UHGV virus genome: UHGV-1366603
Length of the DNA stretch: 64,000 nucleotides
From: a virus
Reading direction: 5' to 3' (one strand)
Every line of letters starts with the position of its first letter. The stretch's first letter is position 1. The position numbers and the translations under genes are program-made. The notes beneath the pieces are model-generated. The model was not told where the DNA came from. It did not search any database and saw only the letters and a program-made list of their open reading frames with translations. This document shows positions 16,541 to 23,465 of this stretch, one piece after another.

Positions 16541-16573
16541 ATAAGTTTACCTACCTCCGTAAAGGAGGTAGGT
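16541..16573. terminator. Bidirectional intrinsic terminator; 3' end of the long minus-strand operon
   Basis: Hairpin acctacctcc-gtaa-aggaggtaggt with T-runs on both sides. Confidence 0.7.
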
Positions 16574-16589
16574 ATTTTTTTGCCGCTAA

Positions 16590-17261
16590 TTACAGCCCTT
16601 GCTCTAATGCAAACGCTTTAATTGAATCGTAATCACGGGCTTCGGCCCAAGCTCTGACTTCTTTTTTCTGTTCCGTCATTGCCTGATGCAGTTGCTGGTC
16701 GCGTTGCACAATAGCACCCAACAGTGTTTTGCACTGCTCTACCGTAAACGGTTCGATACGGGTGTTGTTGGCCGTTAACCAGTACGCTGGCGCGGTTTCT
16801 GATTGAATATAACGACTCAGCGCTACCTGTGACTTCTCATCTGCCTGGAAAGTGAAATCACCCACCTGAATCTCGGCATAGCGCGCATCCTGATAACGGA
16901 ATTCCAATGCGCTCAGGATTTTCTGAACATCGGTAAAGATATAGCGTACGGTGGAACGTAACCCCGTACGAATCTCTTCCAAGTCAATTCCCAACGTGTC
17001 GTTAACAAAGTCTTTCGCTTTCTGTAGCGTAAAACGAGCTTCGATTTCAGACATGTCGTAGTTACGCATTTGTTCCAACGCTTCACGATCAGACATCCCA
17101 TCAATCAATTTATAGTGCAGTAACGCGCAAAAACCCGTACGACCATGATCTTCGCTACCGATTTTTTCCATATAGTTACCATGGCGGTCAATCGGTAAAT
17201 CGTGCTCAAAATAACGACGACGGATTTCTTCTTTCGTTAAGCCTTCACCAGTAGCAGACAT
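16590..17261 (-). CDS. Hypothetical protein, last gene of radical SAM cassette
   Basis: 223-aa ORF overlapping the upstream gene by 25 nt. Confidence 0.55.
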   Translation of the reverse strand: MSATGEGLTKEEIRRRYFEHDLPIDRHGNYMEKIGSEDHGRTGFCALLHYKLIDGMSDREALEQMRNYDMSEIEARFTLQKAKDFVNDTLGIDLEEIRTGLRSTVRYIFTDVQKILSALEFRYQDARYAEIQVGDFTFQADEKSQVALSRYIQSETAPAYWLTANNTRIEPFTVEQCKTLLGAIVQRDQQLHQAMTEQKKEVRAWAEARDYDSIKAFALEQGL

Positions 17262-17809
17262 TCATCGTCTCCTTTAATCAATCCTAATTCGATTAACAGT
17301 TCAAAATCGATATGGCGGAATCTTGTATCGAAATCCGATTCCCAATCGATGCGGATACCCTGGCACTCTTCTGCCGTTAGCTCGGGAAAAATTACGGTAT
17401 TAAATTTCTCACGCTCATCGTAAAACCCATCAATCGGTGAGTTCGGGTTACGCGTTGCGAAAATAGTAATACCGGGGAAAGATAATGCTAACACAGTGAT
17501 AGACTCTGCGCTGGGTTCGCTTAAAGAGCGGCGTAGAAACGCAATTTTGTGGCGTGGGAAGTCCAATACGCGTTCTTCAAACCCTGGATTACGTTTTTCG
17601 ATTTCCGCTACCGACAGGTCAGTAAGTTCGGTGCAATACATTGGGATGATTACAGTCACGCCGTGGCGAATCATTAAACGTTTTACGTCATCAGTAAAAT
17701 CTTCACCGTTAATCATCACGTAACAACCGAATAGCTTACTGTTCTCCAGAAACTTATCCAGAAGTCGAATTCTACGCTTCGTAATATTGTTGATCAGAAT
17801 TGGTTTCAT
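17237..17809 (-). CDS. Hypothetical protein in radical SAM cassette
   Basis: 190-aa ORF overlapping the radical SAM gene 3' end. Confidence 0.5.
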   Translation of the reverse strand: MKPILINNITKRRIRLLDKFLENSKLFGCYVMINGEDFTDDVKRLMIRHGVTVIIPMYCTELTDLSVAEIEKRNPGFEERVLDFPRHKIAFLRRSLSEPSAESITVLALSFPGITIFATRNPNSPIDGFYDEREKFNTVIFPELTAEECQGIRIDWESDFDTRFRHIDFELLIELGLIKGDDECLLLVKA

Positions 17810-19094
17810 CTTTGGCTTCTCTTAATAATTTTTCCTTTTGGGCGCGTTCACGAACACAGCGTGGGCAATAACACATACTCGTGTCGTGGAACGCTTTTGC
17901 TGACGTCGTACCCATCTTCTGTTTCCAGTATTCCGCCACCATCAGTTTCGCTGTCGTCCAGCCGCACTGACGTCGCTCAGCGTGATACGCTTTACGGTCT
18001 TCCAGTGTCCCTTCACCGTTTTCGTAAGAAGCCGCAGCGCAGCTACCACAAGCGTGCTTCATCGGACAACCTAAACAAGTCTCTGGATAGTTGGTATATT
18101 GTGTTTGAATCTCTTCTAACAATTTACCGTTGTCCAGACTGACGAATTCCCGACCTACCAACTCAAATACCGCAGAACGCGACGTTACGGTTGACATAAA
18201 GCGATTGCAACCGAAGATCTTACGATCAAATCCTAAACACGTCATGTGCGTTAATGTCCCACAGAACGGACGTAAACGTTCTGGGTTCAACCGTACTGTG
18301 TCATTATAAAGTAATTGGTCACGCCAGTTCGGTTCCCAAATCGTATCGAAATCCAACCCTTCTGGAATGATATGCGATAAGATATTACGTGGGTTGGTGT
18401 GTAATCCTTTCTCGACCCAATAATCAATCACATCCATCATCTGCAATGCAATTGAAGTAGCCATGCCGCGTGGCATAATGTCTTCGAAGGTTACGTTGCC
18501 GGAGATAGTTCCGCCACCAGTAATATCAATTAATGACTTCATTCCGGCAGCATAGTACGGTAACGTTTCTAACGTAAAGGTCGCCTTTACGCCAAGCTCT
18601 GCAATGCCAACCTCTTTTAAGTAGTTATAGCCTCGTACTGCGGCTTCGTAAGAACCCTGGCGCGTCGTTGTAAAGATACGATAACGGTCATGGGACTCAG
18701 GTAAGCCGTCAATTGAAACCCCAACCGAAAGTTTGTCTTTCCAACGCTCTACGATCTCACGGTTCAACGGGCGATCTAACAACGTCCCGTTTGTGGAAAT
18801 ACTAAACATAAACGGCCGATTATGTTCTTTACACAACTGCTCGGCGGTTTCAAATGCAGCCAGCAGCAACTTAGGCTGCATGAACGGTTCACCACCGATA
18901 ATGTCGATAATAACTTCAACATTCGGTTCGTTTTTATCACGTTCAAAACAGGCGTGCAAGAAATCAACAATATCTGCCGCTTTGTTGTTACGCGGGTACT
19001 TACGTTCGTAACAATATTCGCAGTCCAGGTTACACGAAAGATTCGTTACAATCTGATACGTTAGCTGCTTAGGGAATTCATTTACTTGACTCAT
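17772..19094 (-). CDS. Radical SAM enzyme with C-terminal SPASM-like Cys-rich domain
   Basis: CNLDCEYC (CxxxCxxC) near N-terminus; IGGEPF SAM-binding motif; C-terminal CLGCPMKHACGSC plus additional Cys (CGTLTHMTC, CYCPRC) fit an auxiliary Fe-S SPASM-type domain. Confidence 0.8.
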   Translation of the reverse strand: MSQVNEFPKQLTYQIVTNLSCNLDCEYCYERKYPRNNKAADIVDFLHACFERDKNEPNVEVIIDIIGGEPFMQPKLLLAAFETAEQLCKEHNRPFMFSISTNGTLLDRPLNREIVERWKDKLSVGVSIDGLPESHDRYRIFTTTRQGSYEAAVRGYNYLKEVGIAELGVKATFTLETLPYYAAGMKSLIDITGGGTISGNVTFEDIMPRGMATSIALQMMDVIDYWVEKGLHTNPRNILSHIIPEGLDFDTIWEPNWRDQLLYNDTVRLNPERLRPFCGTLTHMTCLGFDRKIFGCNRFMSTVTSRSAVFELVGREFVSLDNGKLLEEIQTQYTNYPETCLGCPMKHACGSCAAASYENGEGTLEDRKAYHAERRQCGWTTAKLMVAEYWKQKMGTTSAKAFHDTSMCYCPRCVRERAQKEKLLREAKDETNSDQQYYEA

Positions 19095-20001
19095 TTGCCG
19101 CCCCTCTATTACGCCCTGCCATCACTACGCGACGAATATATTCGTAAGCCTCTACACCGATAGAGAAGGCCAGTTGGTTACACCCGGATTCCAGTACGTT
19201 AGGTGCATTCTGGAGCTGGTGCTCACCACCGTCTGCATTAATCCAGAGACTTTCGCTGCAAACGTTACAGCCTTCTTCAAACACTTTACTTACCGTAAAA
19301 CCACATTCACGTCTGTTTACTACATTCAGTCGTTCAATGTTGTCCTGAACCTGATAGTAGCCGTAAATAAAGTTCATGACGTGGTCAGGTGATAACGGTT
19401 TTGGCATTTTCGCATCTAAGAGTAACGTCATTGCTCGGAAACCGTAATGGTAAATCGCGCTATGCAGCTGAATAATATCTTCATGCCAACGTTTATCCCC
19501 CAAACGGTCCCGTGTCAAGACACCCCAAGTCTGGACATTATCCAGCTCGTAGATCGTTTCCAGTGCTTCGTAACAGCCTTCGTCAATAAAGCGCATAAAT
19601 GGACGCTCAGACGACTTAAACCCATCGATGCTAACGTAGACATTGTCAAACTGTTTTAGCAACGGGAGATGCGATTTACGCATCTTTAAGCCATTGGTAT
19701 ACAACTGGTGTTTGAGTTCTGGACGAATCACTTTTAATTCGTCAACAAACGCCTCAATTTTACGGGTTGCCAGTAATGGCTCACCACCCGTCCACTGAAT
19801 TTCGGTAATGGTTGGATTAGCTTCCAACGCTTCCAAAATTCGCTCACGTTGAAACTCTCGCGGAGAATCTTCACGATTCATGTAATAGGCTCCACCGCAG
19901 AAGCTACAATCCAGGTTACACTTGGACGTAGCGACTACGGACAATACGGTGGGTTTATCGTATAAACGATTCGATAACCTTGGTTCTGCATTGGTTGTCA
20001 T
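19078..20001 (-). CDS. Radical SAM enzyme (second, shorter)
   Basis: CNLDCSFCGG (CxxxCxxC) and TGGEPLL motifs; C-terminal Cys cluster CGFTV...CNVCSES...SGCNQ. Confidence 0.8.
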   Translation of the reverse strand: MTTNAEPRLSNRLYDKPTVLSVVATSKCNLDCSFCGGAYYMNREDSPREFQRERILEALEANPTITEIQWTGGEPLLATRKIEAFVDELKVIRPELKHQLYTNGLKMRKSHLPLLKQFDNVYVSIDGFKSSERPFMRFIDEGCYEALETIYELDNVQTWGVLTRDRLGDKRWHEDIIQLHSAIYHYGFRAMTLLLDAKMPKPLSPDHVMNFIYGYYQVQDNIERLNVVNRRECGFTVSKVFEEGCNVCSESLWINADGGEHQLQNAPNVLESGCNQLAFSIGVEAYEYIRRVVMAGRNRGAANESSK

Positions 20002-20022: not shown

Positions 20023-20922
20023 TTAAATATAATCAATGGCGAACAAAGGATCGTCGTCTACGTTAGCACCAGGGGTTAACAAGAATGGAGAGTTATACGC
20101 TTCCAAAATACGGTTAAGGTCTTTATAACGGACATTTAAACGTTCTAAATCCGCTAACGTTACGTTACGGTCCAACACCGCCGACACTGCTGCTTTCTCT
20201 TCGTCAGTTAACGTGACTTTCGTCATTAAGAAACTAACGAGTTTTGCCAGATCCGCTTCTGTTGACGGATGCTCGCCAATACGTGTTTGAATCAAATGCT
20301 GCATCCAAGGCTTACGGATGCGTTTTGTGATTTCGTGCTCATCCGTCAGGGCAACCCACACAGAACGTTCACGATCCCACACGAACTTATAGCTATACGC
20401 CATTAAATCCGCTAAGCAATTAATCCCTAACGCTTCGTACCCTTCAATTTCGATATACGATTCCGTATCGAAATAGTTCTTCGTTTCTGGTGTTACCAGG
20501 GTAAAGAAATACGGGAACGAGCCTAAGTAATCCGGCGACCACCAACGACGGGCAACCGGTTTTGCACCCATTTCTTCAAACGGGGTAAAGAACAATTCCA
20601 TATCTACGGAGTTATTCAAAATCCCGTCACTAAAGAAATATTTACCTGCAACCAATTTACCACGCAACTCGGAGTCACCGGTAAAGACCACTACACTTTC
20701 TGCCGCCAGATCACGAATCTTAAACGTATTTTCTACACGATAGTTTTTACGATCGGTAAAGAAACGTCCGCGCACTTTAGGCCATTCGCCTGGCAATTGC
20801 GTCAGCAGACGAACTTCATCTGCTAAGTGTGCACGTACGGAATCAGGGGAAGAAATGTGAAGTGGATGATTGAAAATCGTTTTGTACGCTAAATGTAAAT
20901 CATTCTTCATTGATTGCTCCAA
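20023..20922 (-). CDS. Hypothetical protein in radical SAM cassette
   Basis: 299-aa ORF, directly abutting the 77-aa gene. Confidence 0.55.
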   Translation of the reverse strand: MEQSMKNDLHLAYKTIFNHPLHISSPDSVRAHLADEVRLLTQLPGEWPKVRGRFFTDRKNYRVENTFKIRDLAAESVVVFTGDSELRGKLVAGKYFFSDGILNNSVDMELFFTPFEEMGAKPVARRWWSPDYLGSFPYFFTLVTPETKNYFDTESYIEIEGYEALGINCLADLMAYSYKFVWDRERSVWVALTDEHEITKRIRKPWMQHLIQTRIGEHPSTEADLAKLVSFLMTKVTLTDEEKAAVSAVLDRNVTLADLERLNVRYKDLNRILEAYNSPFLLTPGANVDDDPLFAIDYI

Positions 20923-21156
20923 CTATTTTACGGTCAAACGGACGTTCAGGGTATAGAACCCACCCCGCCATTGTCTGCCGGTAACTTGAAACTCAGCAGT
21001 AAACCCATTCGATTTACTCGGTTGCTGGTTAATCGCCATACTACCGCCGGAATTACTTAAAACCTCTAAAGAGATAGAAGCAGAAGTCGCATTACCGATT
21101 GAGTCTATCTTAAAACTAGCCGCATCTGTAAAATTGACAGTAATACCATCACCCAT
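20923..21156 (-). CDS. Hypothetical small protein
   Basis: 77-aa ORF between Cys-rich genes and the modification-enzyme genes. Confidence 0.45.
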   Translation of the reverse strand: MGDGITVNFTDAASFKIDSIGNATSASISLEVLSNSGGSMAINQQPSKSNGFTAEFQVTGRQWRGGFYTLNVRLTVK

Positions 21157-21178: not shown

Positions 21179-21385
21179 TTACCGCCCCCCTGCTCCCTTA
21201 CTACAGCTACCGCTGCACGACCAGCTACATCCACCGTTACAGTTGTAGTGGCTTAAAGGTAAACCGGCAAGGTTATTGGTTGAAGACACGGTACCCTGGT
21301 TTGCAATATAGTTGTTTGCGTTAGCGGTCGTAATATACCCTTCCGCTGTTACTAAACGATCACGAAGGTTCTTAAGGCTAATCAC
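21179..21385 (-). CDS. Cys-rich precursor-like protein C (short core)
   Basis: GTG start at 21383-21385 preceded by GGGAGG, which overlaps the stop of gene B. Translation (V)ISLKNLRDRL...HYNCNGGCSWSCSGSCSKGAGGR shares the leader motif and CGGSCSW core start with A and B. Confidence 0.55.
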   Translation of the reverse strand: MISLKNLRDRLVTAEGYITTANANNYIANQGTVSSTNNLAGLPLSHYNCNGGCSWSCSGSCSKGAGGR

Positions 21386-21387
21386 AA

Positions 21388-21786
21388 TTACCTCCCAGAA
21401 CACCCACCGGAACAAGAACCTGAACAGCCTGAAGAACAGTTCCCTGTACACGCGTTAGAACAGCTCCCCGTGCAACTTCCTGAACACCCACCGGAGCAGG
21501 TATTCGAACATCCGCTACAGCCCGCGCTACAACCTGATACGCAGTTTGCAGAACACGAGGAACCACAACCACCGGATGCGTTTCCTGTGCAGCCACCAGA
21601 ACAACTCGAACACGTCCAGCTACAACTACCTCCGCAGTCGTAGTGATTGCGGGCCTGTCCTCCGAATAAGTCTGCGTTGTTTGTCGCTTTCCCGCGAATA
21701 TAGTTTTGTACTGCACCCGTATTCTTCAATGCAGTGCTGTCAATGTTATTTAACCGCGCTTGTAGCGCAGGTAATCCAATTGCCAT
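21388..21786 (-). CDS. Cys-rich precursor-like protein B (~50-aa leader plus ~80-aa Cys/Gly/Ser core)
   Basis: RBS agaggtg. Core begins HYDCGGSCSWTCS and continues with about 20 Cys at mostly CxxxC spacing, ending GGCSGR. Confidence 0.65.
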   Translation of the reverse strand: MAIGLPALQARLNNIDSTALKNTGAVQNYIRGKATNNADLFGGQARNHYDCGGSCSWTCSSCSGGCTGNASGGCGSSCSANCVSGCSAGCSGCSNTCSGGCSGSCTGSCSNACTGNCSSGCSGSCSGGCSGR

Positions 21787-21796
21787 TTTTCACCTC

Positions 21797-22192
21797 TTAG
21801 GTTGGACCAGAACAGCCGCCAGAGCAGGCACCAGAACAACCCGTAGAACAACGGCCTGAGCAAGCACCCCCACAAGTTCCGCTACAACCTGAACACCCAC
21901 CTGAACACGTTGAGCTACATCCAGTACATTGGTTACCGCACGCAGAGGAGCAGCTGCCTACACACACAGACGTACAAGTACCCGAACAGCTCGTACAACC
22001 ATGCGTACAGCCGTTTGAGCACGTCCAGCTACAACTACCTCCGCAGTCTAACCGGTTTGGCGTCCAACCCGAAAATGTATCGGCTGCATTATGTGCTTTC
22101 GACGCAACTTGCGGATCAACACGTGGGCCAGTTGCCATTTGGTTCTCTACGTTGGTGATTCGGTCACGTACGTTTTTAACACTGATCGCCAT
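21797..22192 (-). CDS. Cys-rich precursor-like protein A
   Basis: ATG at 22190-22192 with RBS aagga (track ORF begins one codon earlier at GTG). Leader MAISVKNVRDRITNVENQ...; core NRLDCGGSCSWTCSNGC... ending SGGCSGPT. Confidence 0.65.
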   Translation of the reverse strand: MAISVKNVRDRITNVENQMATGPRVDPQVASKAHNAADTFSGWTPNRLDCGGSCSWTCSNGCTHGCTSCSGTCTSVCVGSCSSACGNQCTGCSSTCSGGCSGCSGTCGGACSGRCSTGCSGACSGGCSGPT

Positions 22193-22259
22193 CACGTATC
22201 CTTAAAATAAAAAAGAATGGAGGACTACGTCCATAAACATAGTTCCTCCTGTAATTAAA

Positions 22260-23465
22260 TTATTTTGTACCCGCTTCCGCCTGTACGTCATCACGAGACG
22301 TCAGGTTAGCGTTAACGTGTACTGGGGCCTGAACCACACCACCGTATCTCTTGTGGAGATAACCGCTGTGCGGGTTATCTGCCGCGATGTGGTTTTGTAG
22401 GTTCTGGTTCGCTTGACTGATTGCGTTCGTGTTATTGTTAACTTGCTGTTTAAGCGCATCCAGGTTCTGTTGTACCTGATCGATTTTCTGATCGGTTTCT
22501 TGACCCTGTTGCTCTAACGCGGCAACACGCTGAATAACCTGATTCAGTTTTGTGTTTAAATCGTTGATGCTCTTTTGCAGTTGTAACACTAACGAGTTCA
22601 GGTTCGCTAACGCTAATGCCATTTTCTGGTAGTTTTGAGCAACCACGTTAAGTTGGTCGTTCCACGCTTCCAGAGAGTTGACAACAGCGTCAATACGCTT
22701 ACCTAAAGCTTCGTCCGCTTTCTTCAGTGCATTGATTTCCGTAATCGTTGCGTCGATAGCAGACTGGACGTCACGGATAAGCGCACGGATTTCAGTTTCC
22801 GTTAACCCGTTAACCTGATGGATATCAAGATGGTGAACGTTACCGGTTGAGTTAATGTGTGCATTTAAAGCGTCTAAGAAGTCATTTTTCAGGCTTTCTA
22901 AAATCGCTTTAATGTTCTCTAACTGTACTGCGTCACCAGAACTAATAGCATCTTTAATACCCGCCAATACGGTAATGATATATTCAAAACCGTAGATGTC
23001 ACCCACGTCTTTATACGTCGGTGCAGACGGGAATGTATCCGGTACGTTACGCAAGTCTTTAAACGCAATCGTACGGTTATCGAGGTTTAATTCAGCAATC
23101 GCCTGTTCGATAGCCACGATGTTCGCAGACTGTGGGCCACCAACGACCTGCGCAGATACTGTAATATCTGTTGGAATCGCTGTGTTAGTGACCACCACCG
23201 CCATAACAATCTCGCGGTTTTTAGTCAGCTTTTCATAAGTCGGGTGTGCAAAAATCAACTCATAATCGGTACCACGTTCGTAGGTTGCATCCGGTCGGTT
23301 AGCAACGCGTAAACGGAACGTGTCCGCAAAGAACGGGCCGTCAGGAAAAGCAAAAGCACGGTTTACTTTACCTGTACCTAACGTAATCTGACGCTCCACA
23401 GCGTTAGACGTTAGCGAGCCCGTTAAATCTAAAGGATATTGATAAACAATGGAGGCCATGGCCAC
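22260..23465 (-). CDS. Tail fibre protein with N-terminal anchor module and long coiled-coil shaft
   Basis: N-terminal FPDGPFFADTFRLRV...GTDYELIF resembles the N-termini of the three large upstream proteins; residues ~230-360 are heptad-rich (LNTKLNQVIQRVAALEQQGQETDQKIDQVQQNLDALKQQ). Confidence 0.6.
   Translation of the reverse strand: MAMASIVYQYPLDLTGSLTSNAVERQITLGTGKVNRAFAFPDGPFFADTFRLRVANRPDATYERGTDYELIFAHPTYEKLTKNREIVMAVVVTNTAIPTDITVSAQVVGGPQSANIVAIEQAIAELNLDNRTIAFKDLRNVPDTFPSAPTYKDVGDIYGFEYIITVLAGIKDAISSGDAVQLENIKAILESLKNDFLDALNAHINSTGNVHHLDIHQVNGLTETEIRALIRDVQSAIDATITEINALKKADEALGKRIDAVVNSLEAWNDQLNVVAQNYQKMALALANLNSLVLQLQKSINDLNTKLNQVIQRVAALEQQGQETDQKIDQVQQNLDALKQQVNNNTNAISQANQNLQNHIAADNPHSGYLHKRYGGVVQAPVHVNANLTSRDDVQAEAGTK

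What the first reader, a model, noticed from the sequence alone, without database searches (positions are those of the whole stretch)
21179..22192. Leader-core architecture and CxxxC periodicity of the three Cys-rich paralogs
All three proteins reach a nearly identical junction (HYDCGGSCSWTCS, RLDCGGSCSWTCS, HYNCNGGCSWSCS) after divergent leaders. The cores are of very different length (about 80, 80 and 17 residues) and consist almost only of C, G, S, T, A and N with Cys mostly every fourth residue. A conserved recognition junction with hypervariable cores is the pattern expected for substrates of one maturase. The extreme composition also produces spurious ORFs on the opposite strand and in other frames (for example 21378-21716 and 21546-21800). 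Regular CxxxC spacing could alternatively indicate a metal-binding or disulfide-stapled fibrous repeat.
Basis: seen in the sequence. Interest (0 to 1): 0.8.

Follow-up and report, generated by a model that had tools for sequence, protein, structure and literature searches.

The report
Phage Cys-ladder proteins with radical-SAM maturases
Three small genes of an SPN3US-like giant phage encode proteins with a cysteine at every fourth residue, next to two radical-SAM enzymes that probably cross-link them; the same domain ends genuine tail-fibre proteins in other phages, so these look like enzyme-stapled fibre parts, not free peptides.

Summary
Three minus-strand genes, A 21797-22192, B 21388-21786 and C 21179-21385, encode paralogs. 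Each has a 48-50-residue N-terminal part, a near-identical C-x-G-x-C-S-W junction and a Cys-every-fourth tail with 21, 20 and 4 Cys.

They are real genes. Against the nearest relative, the A core has 25 synonymous and 0 non-synonymous changes. All 20 related giant-phage loci examined carry exactly one A, one B and one C.

The maturase-substrate idea is supported. B just reaches NCBIfam's CXXX-repeat radical-SAM target model. The 440-aa SPASM enzyme four genes downstream best matches the cognate maturase family TIGR04115, though below its cut-off.

The "divergent leader, hypervariable core" reading is not supported. The leaders are homologous. Among orthologues every Cys column is invariant, lengths are fixed, and the cores are about as conserved as the leaders.

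In other phages the same domain is the C-terminal end of genuine tail-fibre, collagen-like and SGNH-esterase proteins, always with a radical-SAM gene within three genes downstream. Paralog C is fused to swappable C-terminal domains in close relatives.

Best reading: fibre-associated proteins cross-linked by phage radical-SAM enzymes. The chemistry and virion location are untested. SPN3US annotations miss these genes, so published virion proteomics could not have seen them.

The parts
21797..22192 (-). Paralog A, 131 aa. N-terminal part of 49 aa (predicted helix at residues 5-21), junction LDCGGSCSWTCS, and an 82-residue CxxxC tail with 21 Cys.
   Evidence: ORF and Shine-Dalgarno. phrog_6085 at E 1.7e-40. 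Core has 25 synonymous and 0 non-synonymous differences from L013. All 21 Cys columns invariant in 18 orthologues. AF2 model.
21388..21786 (-). Paralog B, 132 aa. 50-aa N-terminal part, junction HYDCGGSCSWTCS, and an 82-residue tail with 20 Cys. One Cys position is Ala in this clade (CTGNASGGC).
   Evidence: ORF. phrog_6085 at E 1.6e-39. TIGR04114 at 20.7 bits against a cut-off of 20. Core pS 0.44, pN 0.03. Orthologue alignment.
21179..21385 (-). Paralog C, 68 aa, GTG start two bases after B's stop codon. 48-aa N-terminal part, junction HYNCNGGCSWSCS, only 4 Cys. Ends at a G6 run.
   Evidence: (phrog_6085 at E 2.3e-24). Fused to 140-158-aa domains in relatives.
21185..21190 (-). G6 homopolymer just before C's stop codon. 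In relatives this tract is the in-frame joint to a C-terminal domain (G11 in L028), or the point where frames differ between contigs.
20923..21156 (-). 77-aa ORF between C and the 295-aa gene. Its last ~40 residues are shared with the remnants that follow C in L013 and L016, and it is weakly similar to the end of the domain fused to C in L028. Possibly a decaying or separately expressed piece.
   Evidence: (32% identity over 56 aa, E 0.007).
20023..20910 (-). Conserved 295-aa accessory protein (phrog_8030, = SPN3US gp165). Confident AF2 model with no known fold match. A remote homologue sits in the same position in a T7-like phage.
19078..20001 (-). Radical SAM enzyme 2, 307 aa (= SPN3US gp164). 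CX3CX2C at residues 28/32/35, plus four C-terminal Cys.
17772..19094 (-). Radical SAM/SPASM enzyme 1, 440 aa (= SPN3US gp163). CX3CX2C at residues 21/25/28. SPASM-type Cys at 278, 286, 296, 340, 343, 349, 352 and 377.
   Evidence: TIGR04115 at 116.9 bits and PapB at 115.9 bits, both below their cut-offs. CteB (5WGG) at E 1.3e-13.
17237..17809 (-). Conserved 190-aa accessory protein (phrog_7988, = SPN3US gp162). Also present in the cassette of an unrelated phage contig.
16590..17261 (-). DUF4376 protein, 223 aa (= SPN3US gp161), with weak matches to tail and tail-fibre PHROGs. Last gene of the minus-strand block.
   Evidence: Not detected in SPN3US virions.
16548..16574 (.). Bidirectional terminator-like hairpin of 11 bp that closes the block.
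22204..22249 (-). Hairpin plus U-tract between the upstream virion-protein gene and A. It looks like a terminator or attenuator.
   Evidence: dG -19.4 kcal/mol, z -3.5.
22260..23465 (-). Coiled-coil virion structural protein, 401 aa (= SPN3US gp167), directly upstream. It is preceded by three giant baseplate/tail-fibre candidate genes.
   Evidence: SPN3US gp167-170 found in virions.

Best explanation
The window comes from a giant phage related to Salmonella phage SPN3US.

A, B and C are translated paralogous proteins. Each has a short helical N-terminal part, an invariant C-x-G-x-C-S-W junction, and (in A and B) an 80-residue ladder of C-[S/T/G]-[G/S]-x units.

After translation, in the host cytoplasm, the two radical-SAM enzymes encoded four and five genes downstream act on the Cys ladder. 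The 295-aa and 190-aa proteins of the same cassette assist them. The junction probably serves as the docking and register-setting element.

The most likely chemistry is the one used by the nearest characterised SPASM enzymes (PapB, CteB/SCIFF maturase, QhpD). A 5'-deoxyadenosyl radical abstracts a hydrogen from a nearby residue, and a Cys sulfur is then joined to that carbon, giving a thioether. Repeated some twenty times, this would turn a floppy Gly/Ser/Cys tail into a rigid, reduction-proof, protease-resistant rod or knot. That is something a phage cannot achieve with disulfides in a reducing cytoplasm.

The mature proteins are then used as parts of, or attachments to, the tail-fibre/baseplate apparatus encoded immediately upstream. 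They may act as a 1:1:1 A-B-C assembly, with C carrying the exchangeable distal domain.

Shown: the genes are real and under strong purifying selection; the cassette is conserved; the family is related to the CXXX-repeat radical-SAM system; the domain is fused to tail-fibre proteins elsewhere.

Inferred: that the enzymes modify these proteins, the thioether chemistry, the virion location, and the heteromer.
For: Coding and selection:
- Between the window and L013, the A core has 25 synonymous and 0 non-synonymous differences, B has 26 and 6, and C has 7 and 0.
- 64 of 73 differences in A and B fall on third codon positions.
- All three genes have strong Shine-Dalgarno sequences.

Link to radical-SAM maturation:
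- B scores 20.7 bits on TIGR04114 (cut-off 20).
- rSAM1's two best NCBIfam hits are TIGR04115 (full length, E 1.4e-33) and PapB.
- rSAM1 has a SPASM Cys pattern. Its nearest solved structures are CteB and anSME.

Conserved cassette:
- 20 of 20 SPN3US-like loci carry exactly one A, one B and one C, next to the same enzymes.
- The same cassette moved as a unit into a different phage contig, L007.

Wider family:
- The profile search found 330 proteins at 90% clustering and 879 representatives at 50% clustering.
- All eight further phage contexts sampled have a radical-SAM gene within three genes downstream.
- One gut-phage enzyme passes the TIGR04115 cut-off, 378.6 against 350.

Structural role:
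- The phrog_6085 domain is the C-terminus of proteins whose N-termini match tail collar fibre (phrog_910, E 2e-20), tail-fibre proximal subunit (phrog_972) and tail fibre (phrog_5073) families.
- It also ends collagen-like, coiled-coil and SGNH-esterase proteins.
- In a T7-like contig it follows the Phage_T7_tail adaptor gene and a collagen-like gene.
- In L028 and L029, C is fused in frame to two unrelated 140-158-aa domains, which is how receptor-binding proteins behave.
- In the window the genes lie between the orthologue of virion protein gp167 and a DUF4376 protein.
- Fixed lengths and invariant Cys columns fit a structural domain.
Against: - No experiment shows any modification. The chemistry of the whole CXXX-repeat family is, to my knowledge, uncharacterised.
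- rSAM1 is far below the curated cut-offs of both TIGR04115 (117 against 350) and PapB (116 against 340).
- The cores contain no Asp or Glu, the acceptor residues used by PapB and QhpD.
- AF2 gives no fold for A: pLDDT 46.6, with only one helix.
- In L007 the cassette is not beside tail-fibre genes.
- SPN3US gp161-166 were not detected in virions. The three ORFs were not in the search database, because the annotated gp166 is a wrong-frame ORF, so this is silent rather than negative.
- The heterotrimer idea rests only on the strict 1:1:1 conservation.
Confidence: 0.5

Rival explanations
1. Classical RiPP. A, B and C are precursors whose leaders are cut off, and the cross-linked cores are released at lysis as diffusible peptides such as a bacteriocin, signal or anti-competitor agent.
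For: The proteins are small and have a leader-like part, a conserved junction and a Cys-rich tail. They sit next to a SPASM maturase related to ranthipeptide and SCIFF enzymes. In L007 the cassette is not in a tail module.
Against: - No peptidase, exporter or immunity gene is in the cassette.
- Cores are not hypervariable, and their lengths and Cys register are fixed across genera.
- The three paralog lineages are kept 1:1:1 in 20 loci.
- The 'leader' region is internal in tail-fibre fusion proteins.
- C is fused to large C-terminal domains downstream of the Cys motif.
Confidence: 0.13
2. Non-virion assembly factor. The modified proteins act as a scaffold, chaperone or template for tail-fibre assembly and are not part of the finished particle.
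For: The neighbours gp161-165 are absent from SPN3US virions. A DUF4376 protein with only weak tail and tail-fibre PHROG matches closes the block. Many fibre proteins carry C-terminal parts that serve assembly only (own knowledge).
Against: In many phages the domain is covalently part of fibre proteins, with no evident cleavage site. C carries variable distal domains. Irreversible cross-linking seems an expensive way to make a transient factor.
Confidence: 0.17
3. Metal or iron-sulfur binding protein. The Cys ladder binds Zn, Fe or Fe-S clusters and is not covalently modified. The radical-SAM enzymes act on something else.
For: The tail is 25% Cys and has no aromatic or charged residues. Fibre proteins of other phages hold metal ions on their axis (own knowledge). 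Bacterial relatives carry Tat-type signals and sit next to TatA/TatC, the route used by cofactor-loaded proteins.
Against: - The CC and CxC motifs typical of metallothioneins are completely absent.
- The Cys-rich gene and a SPASM enzyme are adjacent in every sampled context across unrelated phages and bacteria.
- The curated family models name these proteins as radical-SAM targets.
Confidence: 0.08
4. Not real genes. The ORFs are open only because of the skewed composition.
For: The composition keeps several frames open on both strands. One antisense frame shows the same synonymous pattern, because its third codon positions coincide with those of the sense frame.
Against: - Each ORF runs from start to stop with a Shine-Dalgarno, and is conserved in 20 loci across at least four genera at about 50-60% protein identity.
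- The A core has 25 synonymous and 0 non-synonymous differences.
- The proteins match PHROG and NCBIfam profiles.
- There are hundreds of homologues, with conserved enzyme neighbours.
Confidence: 0.02

Closest known systems
CXXX-repeat radical-SAM target system (NCBIfam TIGR04114/TIGR04117 targets = Pfam PF27846; TIGR04115 rSAM/SPASM maturase; TIGR04119 second maturase; TIGR04116 accessory protein). It is defined bioinformatically, and I know of no determined chemistry for it.
   Same: The target tail has a Cys every fourth residue and is rich in Gly, Ser and Thr. The adjacent SPASM enzyme best matches TIGR04115. Two maturase-type proteins serve each target set.
   Different: - The bacterial example fetched here (L027) has a ~100-aa target with a twin-arginine signal, plus TIGR04119, TIGR04116, TatA and TatC.
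- The phage set has none of these.
- Instead it has a 48-50-aa helical N-terminal part, a CSW junction, three fixed paralogs, a second true radical-SAM enzyme, and two private accessory proteins (295 and 190 aa).
- rSAM1 scores 117 bits against a cut-off of 350.
Ranthipeptide maturase PapB (freyrasin) and SCIFF maturase CteB
   Same: SPASM radical-SAM enzymes that install several Cys-derived thioether cross-links in a repeat-containing peptide. PapB is the joint best NCBIfam hit, and CteB is the nearest solved structure.
   Different: PapB joins Cys to Asp or Glu in C-x3-D units (own knowledge), and the phage cores contain no Asp or Glu. The scores are below the family cut-offs. The products of PapB and CteB are small peptides, not domains of fibre proteins.
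QhpD/QhpC (quinohemoprotein amine dehydrogenase gamma subunit)
   Same: This is a precedent for a SPASM enzyme that puts several intramolecular thioether cross-links into a small protein subunit that then serves as a structural part of a larger complex (own knowledge). TIGR03906 is among the hits of rSAM1.
   Different: The acceptors are Asp and Glu. The subunit is an enzyme part that carries a quinone cofactor. There is no Cys-every-fourth ladder and no phage context.
Phage tail-fibre proteins with repetitive stiff shafts (collagen-like and coiled-coil fibres)
   Same: The genes lie in the fibre/baseplate module. The homologous domain sits at the C-terminus of proteins with tail-fibre, collagen-like and coiled-coil N-terminal parts. 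C carries a swappable distal domain.
   Different: To my knowledge and in the library searched, no known fibre shaft depends on radical-SAM enzymes or has a Cys ladder. Virion presence has not been shown here.

Membership tests
CXXX-repeat radical-SAM target system (TIGR04114-04119) | Target protein with a Cys-every-fourth-residue repeat that reaches the TIGR04114 (PF27846) score | tested here: inconclusive
   The periodicity is unmistakable. B scores 20.7 bits against a cut-off of 20, A scores 14.5, and C does not hit.
CXXX-repeat radical-SAM target system (TIGR04114-04119) | Adjacent rSAM/SPASM maturase that reaches the TIGR04115 cut-off | tested here: not met
   TIGR04115 is the best hit, and the match is full length, but it scores 116.9 bits against a cut-off of 350. 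A gut-phage relative (L009) does pass, at 378.6 bits.
CXXX-repeat radical-SAM target system (TIGR04114-04119) | Second maturase TIGR04119 and accessory protein TIGR04116 | tested here: not met
   No protein in the cassette hits either model. rSAM2 against a TIGR04119 protein gives BLASTP E 1.5.
CXXX-repeat radical-SAM target system (TIGR04114-04119) | Twin-arginine signal on the target, and linked TatA/TatC, as in the bacterial example fetched | tested here: not met
   The bacterial targets carry SRRxFFKKAAK, and locus L027 has TatA/TatC. A, B and C have no such motif.
RiPP precursor (leader-core natural product) | Conserved recognition sequence next to the modified region | tested here: met
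   The junction is the most conserved part: 0.74-0.78 pairwise identity for its non-Cys residues.
RiPP precursor (leader-core natural product) | Core more variable than the leader, with paralog number and length free to vary | tested here: not met
   Core identity is 0.53-0.58 against 0.59-0.60 for the leader. All Cys columns are invariant. Lengths are 128-131 aa (A) and 130-142 aa (B). The 1:1:1 paralog set is kept in 20 loci.
RiPP precursor (leader-core natural product) | Leader peptidase and/or exporter in the cluster | tested here: not met
   Pfam, PHROG and NCBIfam scans of all cassette proteins show none. The fold of the 295-aa protein matches no peptidase.
Ranthipeptide / sactipeptide (thioether RiPPs) | SPASM radical-SAM maturase with CX3CX2C and auxiliary-cluster Cys | tested here: met
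   rSAM1 has Cys at 21/25/28 and at 278, 286, 296, 340, 343, 349, 352 and 377. It is related to CteB and anSME.
Ranthipeptide / sactipeptide (thioether RiPPs) | Cys-to-carbon thioether cross-links in the product | not testable with these tools
   This needs mass spectrometry or NMR of the modified protein.
Ranthipeptide / sactipeptide (thioether RiPPs) | PapB-type C-x3-D/E acceptor motif | tested here: not met
   The cores of A, B and C contain no Asp or Glu.
Phage tail-fibre / fibre-associated protein | Encoded in the tail-fibre/baseplate module | tested here: met
   The genes lie directly downstream of the orthologues of SPN3US virion proteins gp167-170, and upstream of a DUF4376 protein.
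Phage tail-fibre / fibre-associated protein | Homology to domains of recognised tail-fibre proteins | tested here: met
   phrog_6085 occurs as the C-terminal domain of proteins that match phrog_910, phrog_972 and phrog_5073 (tail collar fibre and tail fibre), and of collagen-like fibres.
Phage tail-fibre / fibre-associated protein | Presence in purified virions | not tested
   The published SPN3US virion proteome used an annotation without these ORFs. gp166 is a wrong-frame call.
Metallothionein-like metal-binding protein | Clustered CC, CxC and CxxC motifs | tested here: not met
   There is no CC or CxC in 36 orthologues. Only spacings of 3, 4 and 8 occur.

The most novel reading that the evidence does not exclude
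Phages of several unrelated lineages (SPN3US-like giant phages, T7-like podophages, gut phages) build part of their tail fibres or receptor-binding apparatus from a Cys-every-fourth-residue domain. Phage-encoded radical-SAM enzymes covalently staple this domain inside the host cell. As far as I can find, that would be the first virion structural protein matured by radical chemistry, and the first assigned biological role for the CXXX-repeat radical-SAM family. A bolder version follows from PapB-type enzymes bridging residue i to i+4. In a C-x3-C ladder each Cys could be both donor and acceptor, giving a continuous chain of fused rings.
Probability: 0.35. Interest if true: 0.85.

Novelty: new variant of a known kind. 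Interest (0 to 1): 0.72.

Why it matters
**For radical-SAM biology.** It would give the orphan CXXX-repeat radical-SAM family a biological role for the first time, and a tractable model. SPN3US grows on Salmonella and already has amber-mutant genetics and virion proteomics.

**For phage biology.** It would show that phages use radical-SAM peptide chemistry to build particles, not only for nucleotide or metabolic tricks. It also suggests how a phage gets disulfide-like rigidity in a reducing cytoplasm.

**For application.** A short genetically encoded tail that enzymes turn into a reduction-proof rod could be useful for stabilising engineered fibres or proteins.

**For annotation.** These genes are missing or called in the wrong frame in the SPN3US reference and in many related records. 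Existing proteomic and structural studies therefore could not have seen them.

Tried and rejected
**Structure prediction of A.** A 30-sequence alignment gave pLDDT 46.6 and only one helix. The model was unusable for fold search.

**Accessory proteins and the bacterial system.** Pfam and NCBIfam gave nothing for the 295-aa, 190-aa and 77-aa proteins. I tested whether rSAM2 is the counterpart of the bacterial TIGR04119 maturase and found no similarity.

**Solved structures.** A PDB sequence search with the family profile found no relative.

**Literature.** Ten searches found no description of the CXXX-repeat system or of radical-SAM enzymes acting on phage fibres. The library did not hold the paper under the PMC id I guessed for Haft & Basu 2011.

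**DNA-level tandem repeat.** I considered that the ladder was an artefact of a DNA repeat. I rejected this because TRF finds almost nothing and the codons are diversified.

**Docking segments.** I looked for segments like the A, B and C leaders elsewhere in the window, which might act as docking partners. There are none.

**Promoters.** The sigma-70 scan gave fewer matches than shuffled sequence. I did not use it, because these phages carry their own RNA polymerases.
Full report
**Where the window comes from**

The window is from a giant phage of the SPN3US group. The stretch 20000-24000 matches Salmonella, E. coli and Proteus phages of about 240 kb at only about 71% nucleotide identity. An IMG/VR contig of 225 kb (L013) is the nearest relative found, at about 94% identity across the three genes.

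Gene order matches SPN3US, all on the minus strand:
- three giant baseplate/tail-fibre candidate genes (SPN3US gp170, gp169, gp168);
- a coiled-coil virion protein (gp167);
- the three Cys-rich genes;
- a 295-aa protein (gp165);
- two radical-SAM enzymes (gp164, gp163);
- a 190-aa protein (gp162);
- a DUF4376 protein (gp161).

A strong bidirectional terminator closes the block at 16548-16574.

**The observation**

The three genes are A (21797-22192, 131 aa), B (21388-21786, 132 aa) and C (21179-21385, 68 aa). C has a GTG start preceded by GGGAGG, and this start is confirmed by the SPN3US orthologue. The quoted junction strings are exact.

From the first Cys onward, the tails are 82, 82 and 20 residues with 21, 20 and 4 Cys, and 85-96% of residues are C, G, S, T, A or N. 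In A, 17 of 20 Cys spacings are exactly 4. Shuffled cores give a mean of 2.2 and never exceeded 10 in 100,000 trials.

The unit is C-[S 62%, G, T]-[G 56%, S]-[G, S, T, N]. The repeat is not a DNA tandem array.

**Are they genes?**

Yes.
- Against L013 the A core has 25 synonymous and 0 non-synonymous differences. B has 26 and 6, and C has 7 and 0.
- 64 of 73 differences in A and B are at third codon positions.
One antisense frame shares third positions and so cannot be excluded by this test alone. It is only a 57-aa ORF in the window.
- The sense ORFs run from a Shine-Dalgarno and start codon to a stop codon in all 20 related loci.
- All three proteins match PHROG family phrog_6085, of unknown function, from their first residue.

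The SPN3US GenBank and RefSeq records do not annotate A or C. In place of B they annotate a wrong-frame 111-aa ORF, gp166 = ACQ60_gp100. A tblastn search found 'none' annotated under the match in about half of the 60 phage records that carry the gene.

**Conservation pattern**

The three N-terminal parts are homologous: same length, 26-35% identity, z 4.4-8.3.

Eighteen distinct orthologues each of A and B were compared. They come from Seoulvirus, Machinavirus, Wellingtonvirus, Derbicusvirus and metagenomic relatives.
- Every Cys column is invariant, 21 of 21 in A and 20 of 20 in B.
- A is always 128-131 aa, and B is 130-142 aa.
- The junction is the most conserved segment (0.74-0.78 pairwise identity for non-Cys residues).
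- The distal tail (0.53-0.58) is about as conserved as the N-terminal part (0.59-0.60).

Each of 20 loci has exactly one A, one B and one C. In the Derbicusvirus- and Wellingtonvirus-type loci, C keeps only the two junction Cys.

This is how a structural domain behaves. It is not how a hypervariable natural-product core behaves.

**Link to radical-SAM enzymes**

rSAM1 (440 aa) has CX3CX2C at residues 21/25/28 and a SPASM-type set of eight C-terminal Cys.
- Its two best NCBIfam matches are TIGR04115, 'radical SAM peptide maturase, CXXX-repeat target family' (full length, 116.9 bits), and PapB (115.9 bits). Both are far below their curated cut-offs.
- Its nearest solved structures are the SCIFF maturase CteB (5WGG) and anSME.
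- B reaches the cut-off of the matching target model TIGR04114 (20.7 against 20), and A does not.

A genuine bacterial system fetched for comparison (L027) has a 102-aa target with a twin-arginine signal, TIGR04115 (630 bits), TIGR04119, TIGR04116, TatA and TatC.

The phage cassette lacks TIGR04119, TIGR04116 and Tat. It has instead:
- a second true radical-SAM enzyme, rSAM2;
- a 295-aa protein whose confident model matches no known fold;
- a 190-aa protein.

The whole cassette also occurs in an unrelated 76-kb phage contig (L007). There it has Cys-rich genes of 122, 119 and 69 aa and homologues of all four partner proteins.

**Evidence for a fibre-related, structural role**

A profile search found 330 relatives at 90% clustering and 879 representatives at 50% clustering. 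Beyond the small phage proteins and the Tat-signal bacterial peptides, many are longer proteins with the phrog_6085 region at the C-terminus.
- Some have N-termini that match tail collar fibre (phrog_910, E 2e-20), tail-fibre proximal subunit (phrog_972) or tail fibre (phrog_5073) families.
- Others are a collagen-like fibre (P0218), a long coiled-coil fibre (P0196), SGNH-esterase fusions (P0245, P0261) and a 1610-aa giant (P0174).
- In these proteins, the segment equivalent to the 'leader' (...NA-x-L-x-G-Q-x3-Y-Y-R-C-x-x-G-C-S-W-T-C...) is internal.

All eight additional phage contexts I opened have a radical-SAM gene within three genes downstream of the Cys-rich gene. Most lie in tail, fibre or virion structural modules.
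- One is a T7-like contig with the order: Phage_T7_tail adaptor, collagen-like protein, Cys-rich protein, a remote homologue of the 295-aa protein, then a fused double radical-SAM enzyme.
- One gut-phage enzyme passes the TIGR04115 cut-off.

In two close relatives of the window (L028, L029), C is fused in frame through a poly-G tract to two unrelated domains of 140-158 aa. A conserved proximal part with a swappable distal part is typical of receptor-binding proteins.

**Published proteomics**

The SPN3US virion proteome found gp167-173 in particles and did not find gp161-166 (PMC5694885 Supplementary Table 1). That fits the enzymes and accessory proteins being non-virion. It says nothing about A, B and C, which were not in the sequence database. 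Their N-terminal parts would give ordinary tryptic peptides. The tails would give 67-86-residue Cys-rich peptides that standard workflows miss.

**Mechanism proposed**

This section is inference. The enzymes recognise the junction and work along the ladder. They make Cys-derived thioether cross-links, as the nearest characterised SPASM enzymes do (PapB, CteB and QhpD; own knowledge).

The result would be a rigid, reduction-proof domain made in the cytoplasm, where disulfides are not available. It would then be used in or on the fibre/baseplate apparatus.

Two points argue against metal binding or a PapB-type acceptor. CC and CxC motifs are completely absent, and the cores contain no Asp or Glu. 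The acceptor is therefore likely a Ser, Thr or Gly, or the next Cys. The strict 1:1:1 paralog set suggests a heteromer, but nothing tests this.

**Comparison and novelty**

By the curated thresholds the phage set is not a member of the bacterial CXXX-repeat system. It is a divergent relative with different accessory parts and a different biological setting. I found no paper on the chemistry of that family or on radical-SAM maturation of phage structural proteins. The library is incomplete, so prior work may exist.

I rate it a new variant of a known kind. Interest is high because a cheap re-analysis of existing mass spectra and a simple co-expression experiment would decide the main questions.

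Noticed in passing
L001 9934-10963 (SPN3US NC_027402 / JN641803, about 143191-144220): The SPN3US reference records do not annotate A or C. In place of B they annotate a wrong-frame 111-aa ORF (gp166 / ACQ60_gp100). About half of the 60 related phage records have no feature under the tblastn match.
   Followed up: yes
window 21179-21195; L028 5157-5633; L029 5157-5681; L016 and L015 just after C: C ends at a G6 run. In L028 a G11 run joins C in frame to a 140-aa domain. In L029 a G-rich tract joins it to an unrelated 158-aa domain. P0043 (seen on 19 contigs) is the frameshifted form of P0050 (226 aa, seen on 10 contigs). In L016 and L015 the remnant is open in the -1 frame directly from a G GGG GGA heptamer. 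This may be a phase-variable or frameshift site.
   Followed up: partly
window 20923-21156 (-): The 77-aa ORF between C and the 295-aa gene has no obvious Shine-Dalgarno. It shares ...SKSNGFTAEFQVTGRQWRGGFYTLNVRLTV with the remnants in L013 (which has in-frame stops) and L016. It weakly resembles the end of the domain fused to C in L028. The spacer between C and the next gene ranges from 42 to 523 nt among relatives.
   Followed up: partly
L017 4380-5303 and L018 4381-5304: Two metagenomic relatives carry a 307-aa radical-SAM gene of the rSAM2 type (same size and Cys motif, by eye) inserted between A and B.
   Followed up: no
window 21179-22192 against L013: Synonymous divergence in the Cys-rich cores (pS 0.41-0.57) is two to three times that of the N-terminal parts (0.15-0.26) and five to seven times that of the neighbouring 295-aa gene (0.078). 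Possible causes are transition bias at two-fold TGY codons, mosaic recombination, or selection for codon diversification in a repetitive gene.
   Followed up: partly
window 22204-22249 (-): A hairpin (dG -19.4 kcal/mol, z -3.5) followed by a U-rich tract lies between the gp167-like gene and A. It looks like a terminator or attenuator, which would set A-B-C expression apart from the big fibre genes.
   Followed up: partly
window 21388-21786 (B), residues 66-74: The single 8-residue Cys gap in B (CTGNASGGC) is a Cys-to-Ala replacement specific to the Seoulvirus- and Machinavirus-like clade. Wellingtonvirus- and Derbicusvirus-like orthologues keep the Cys (CTGNCSSGC). Wellington-type B also has a 9-10-residue insertion with two more Cys.
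   Followed up: yes
[not shown]
   Followed up: yes
L027 6001-9906: The bacterial CXXX-repeat system fetched for comparison is followed directly by its own TatA and TatC genes, and its target carries a twin-arginine signal. This implies export of an already modified or folded product.
   Followed up: partly
P0174 (1610 aa), P0245 and P0261 (SGNH-hydrolase fusions): Family members include a 1610-aa protein whose last ~620 residues are one continuous CxxxC ladder, and proteins with an N-terminal GDSL/SGNH motif (judged by eye, not scanned) joined to the Cys-rich domain.
   Followed up: no
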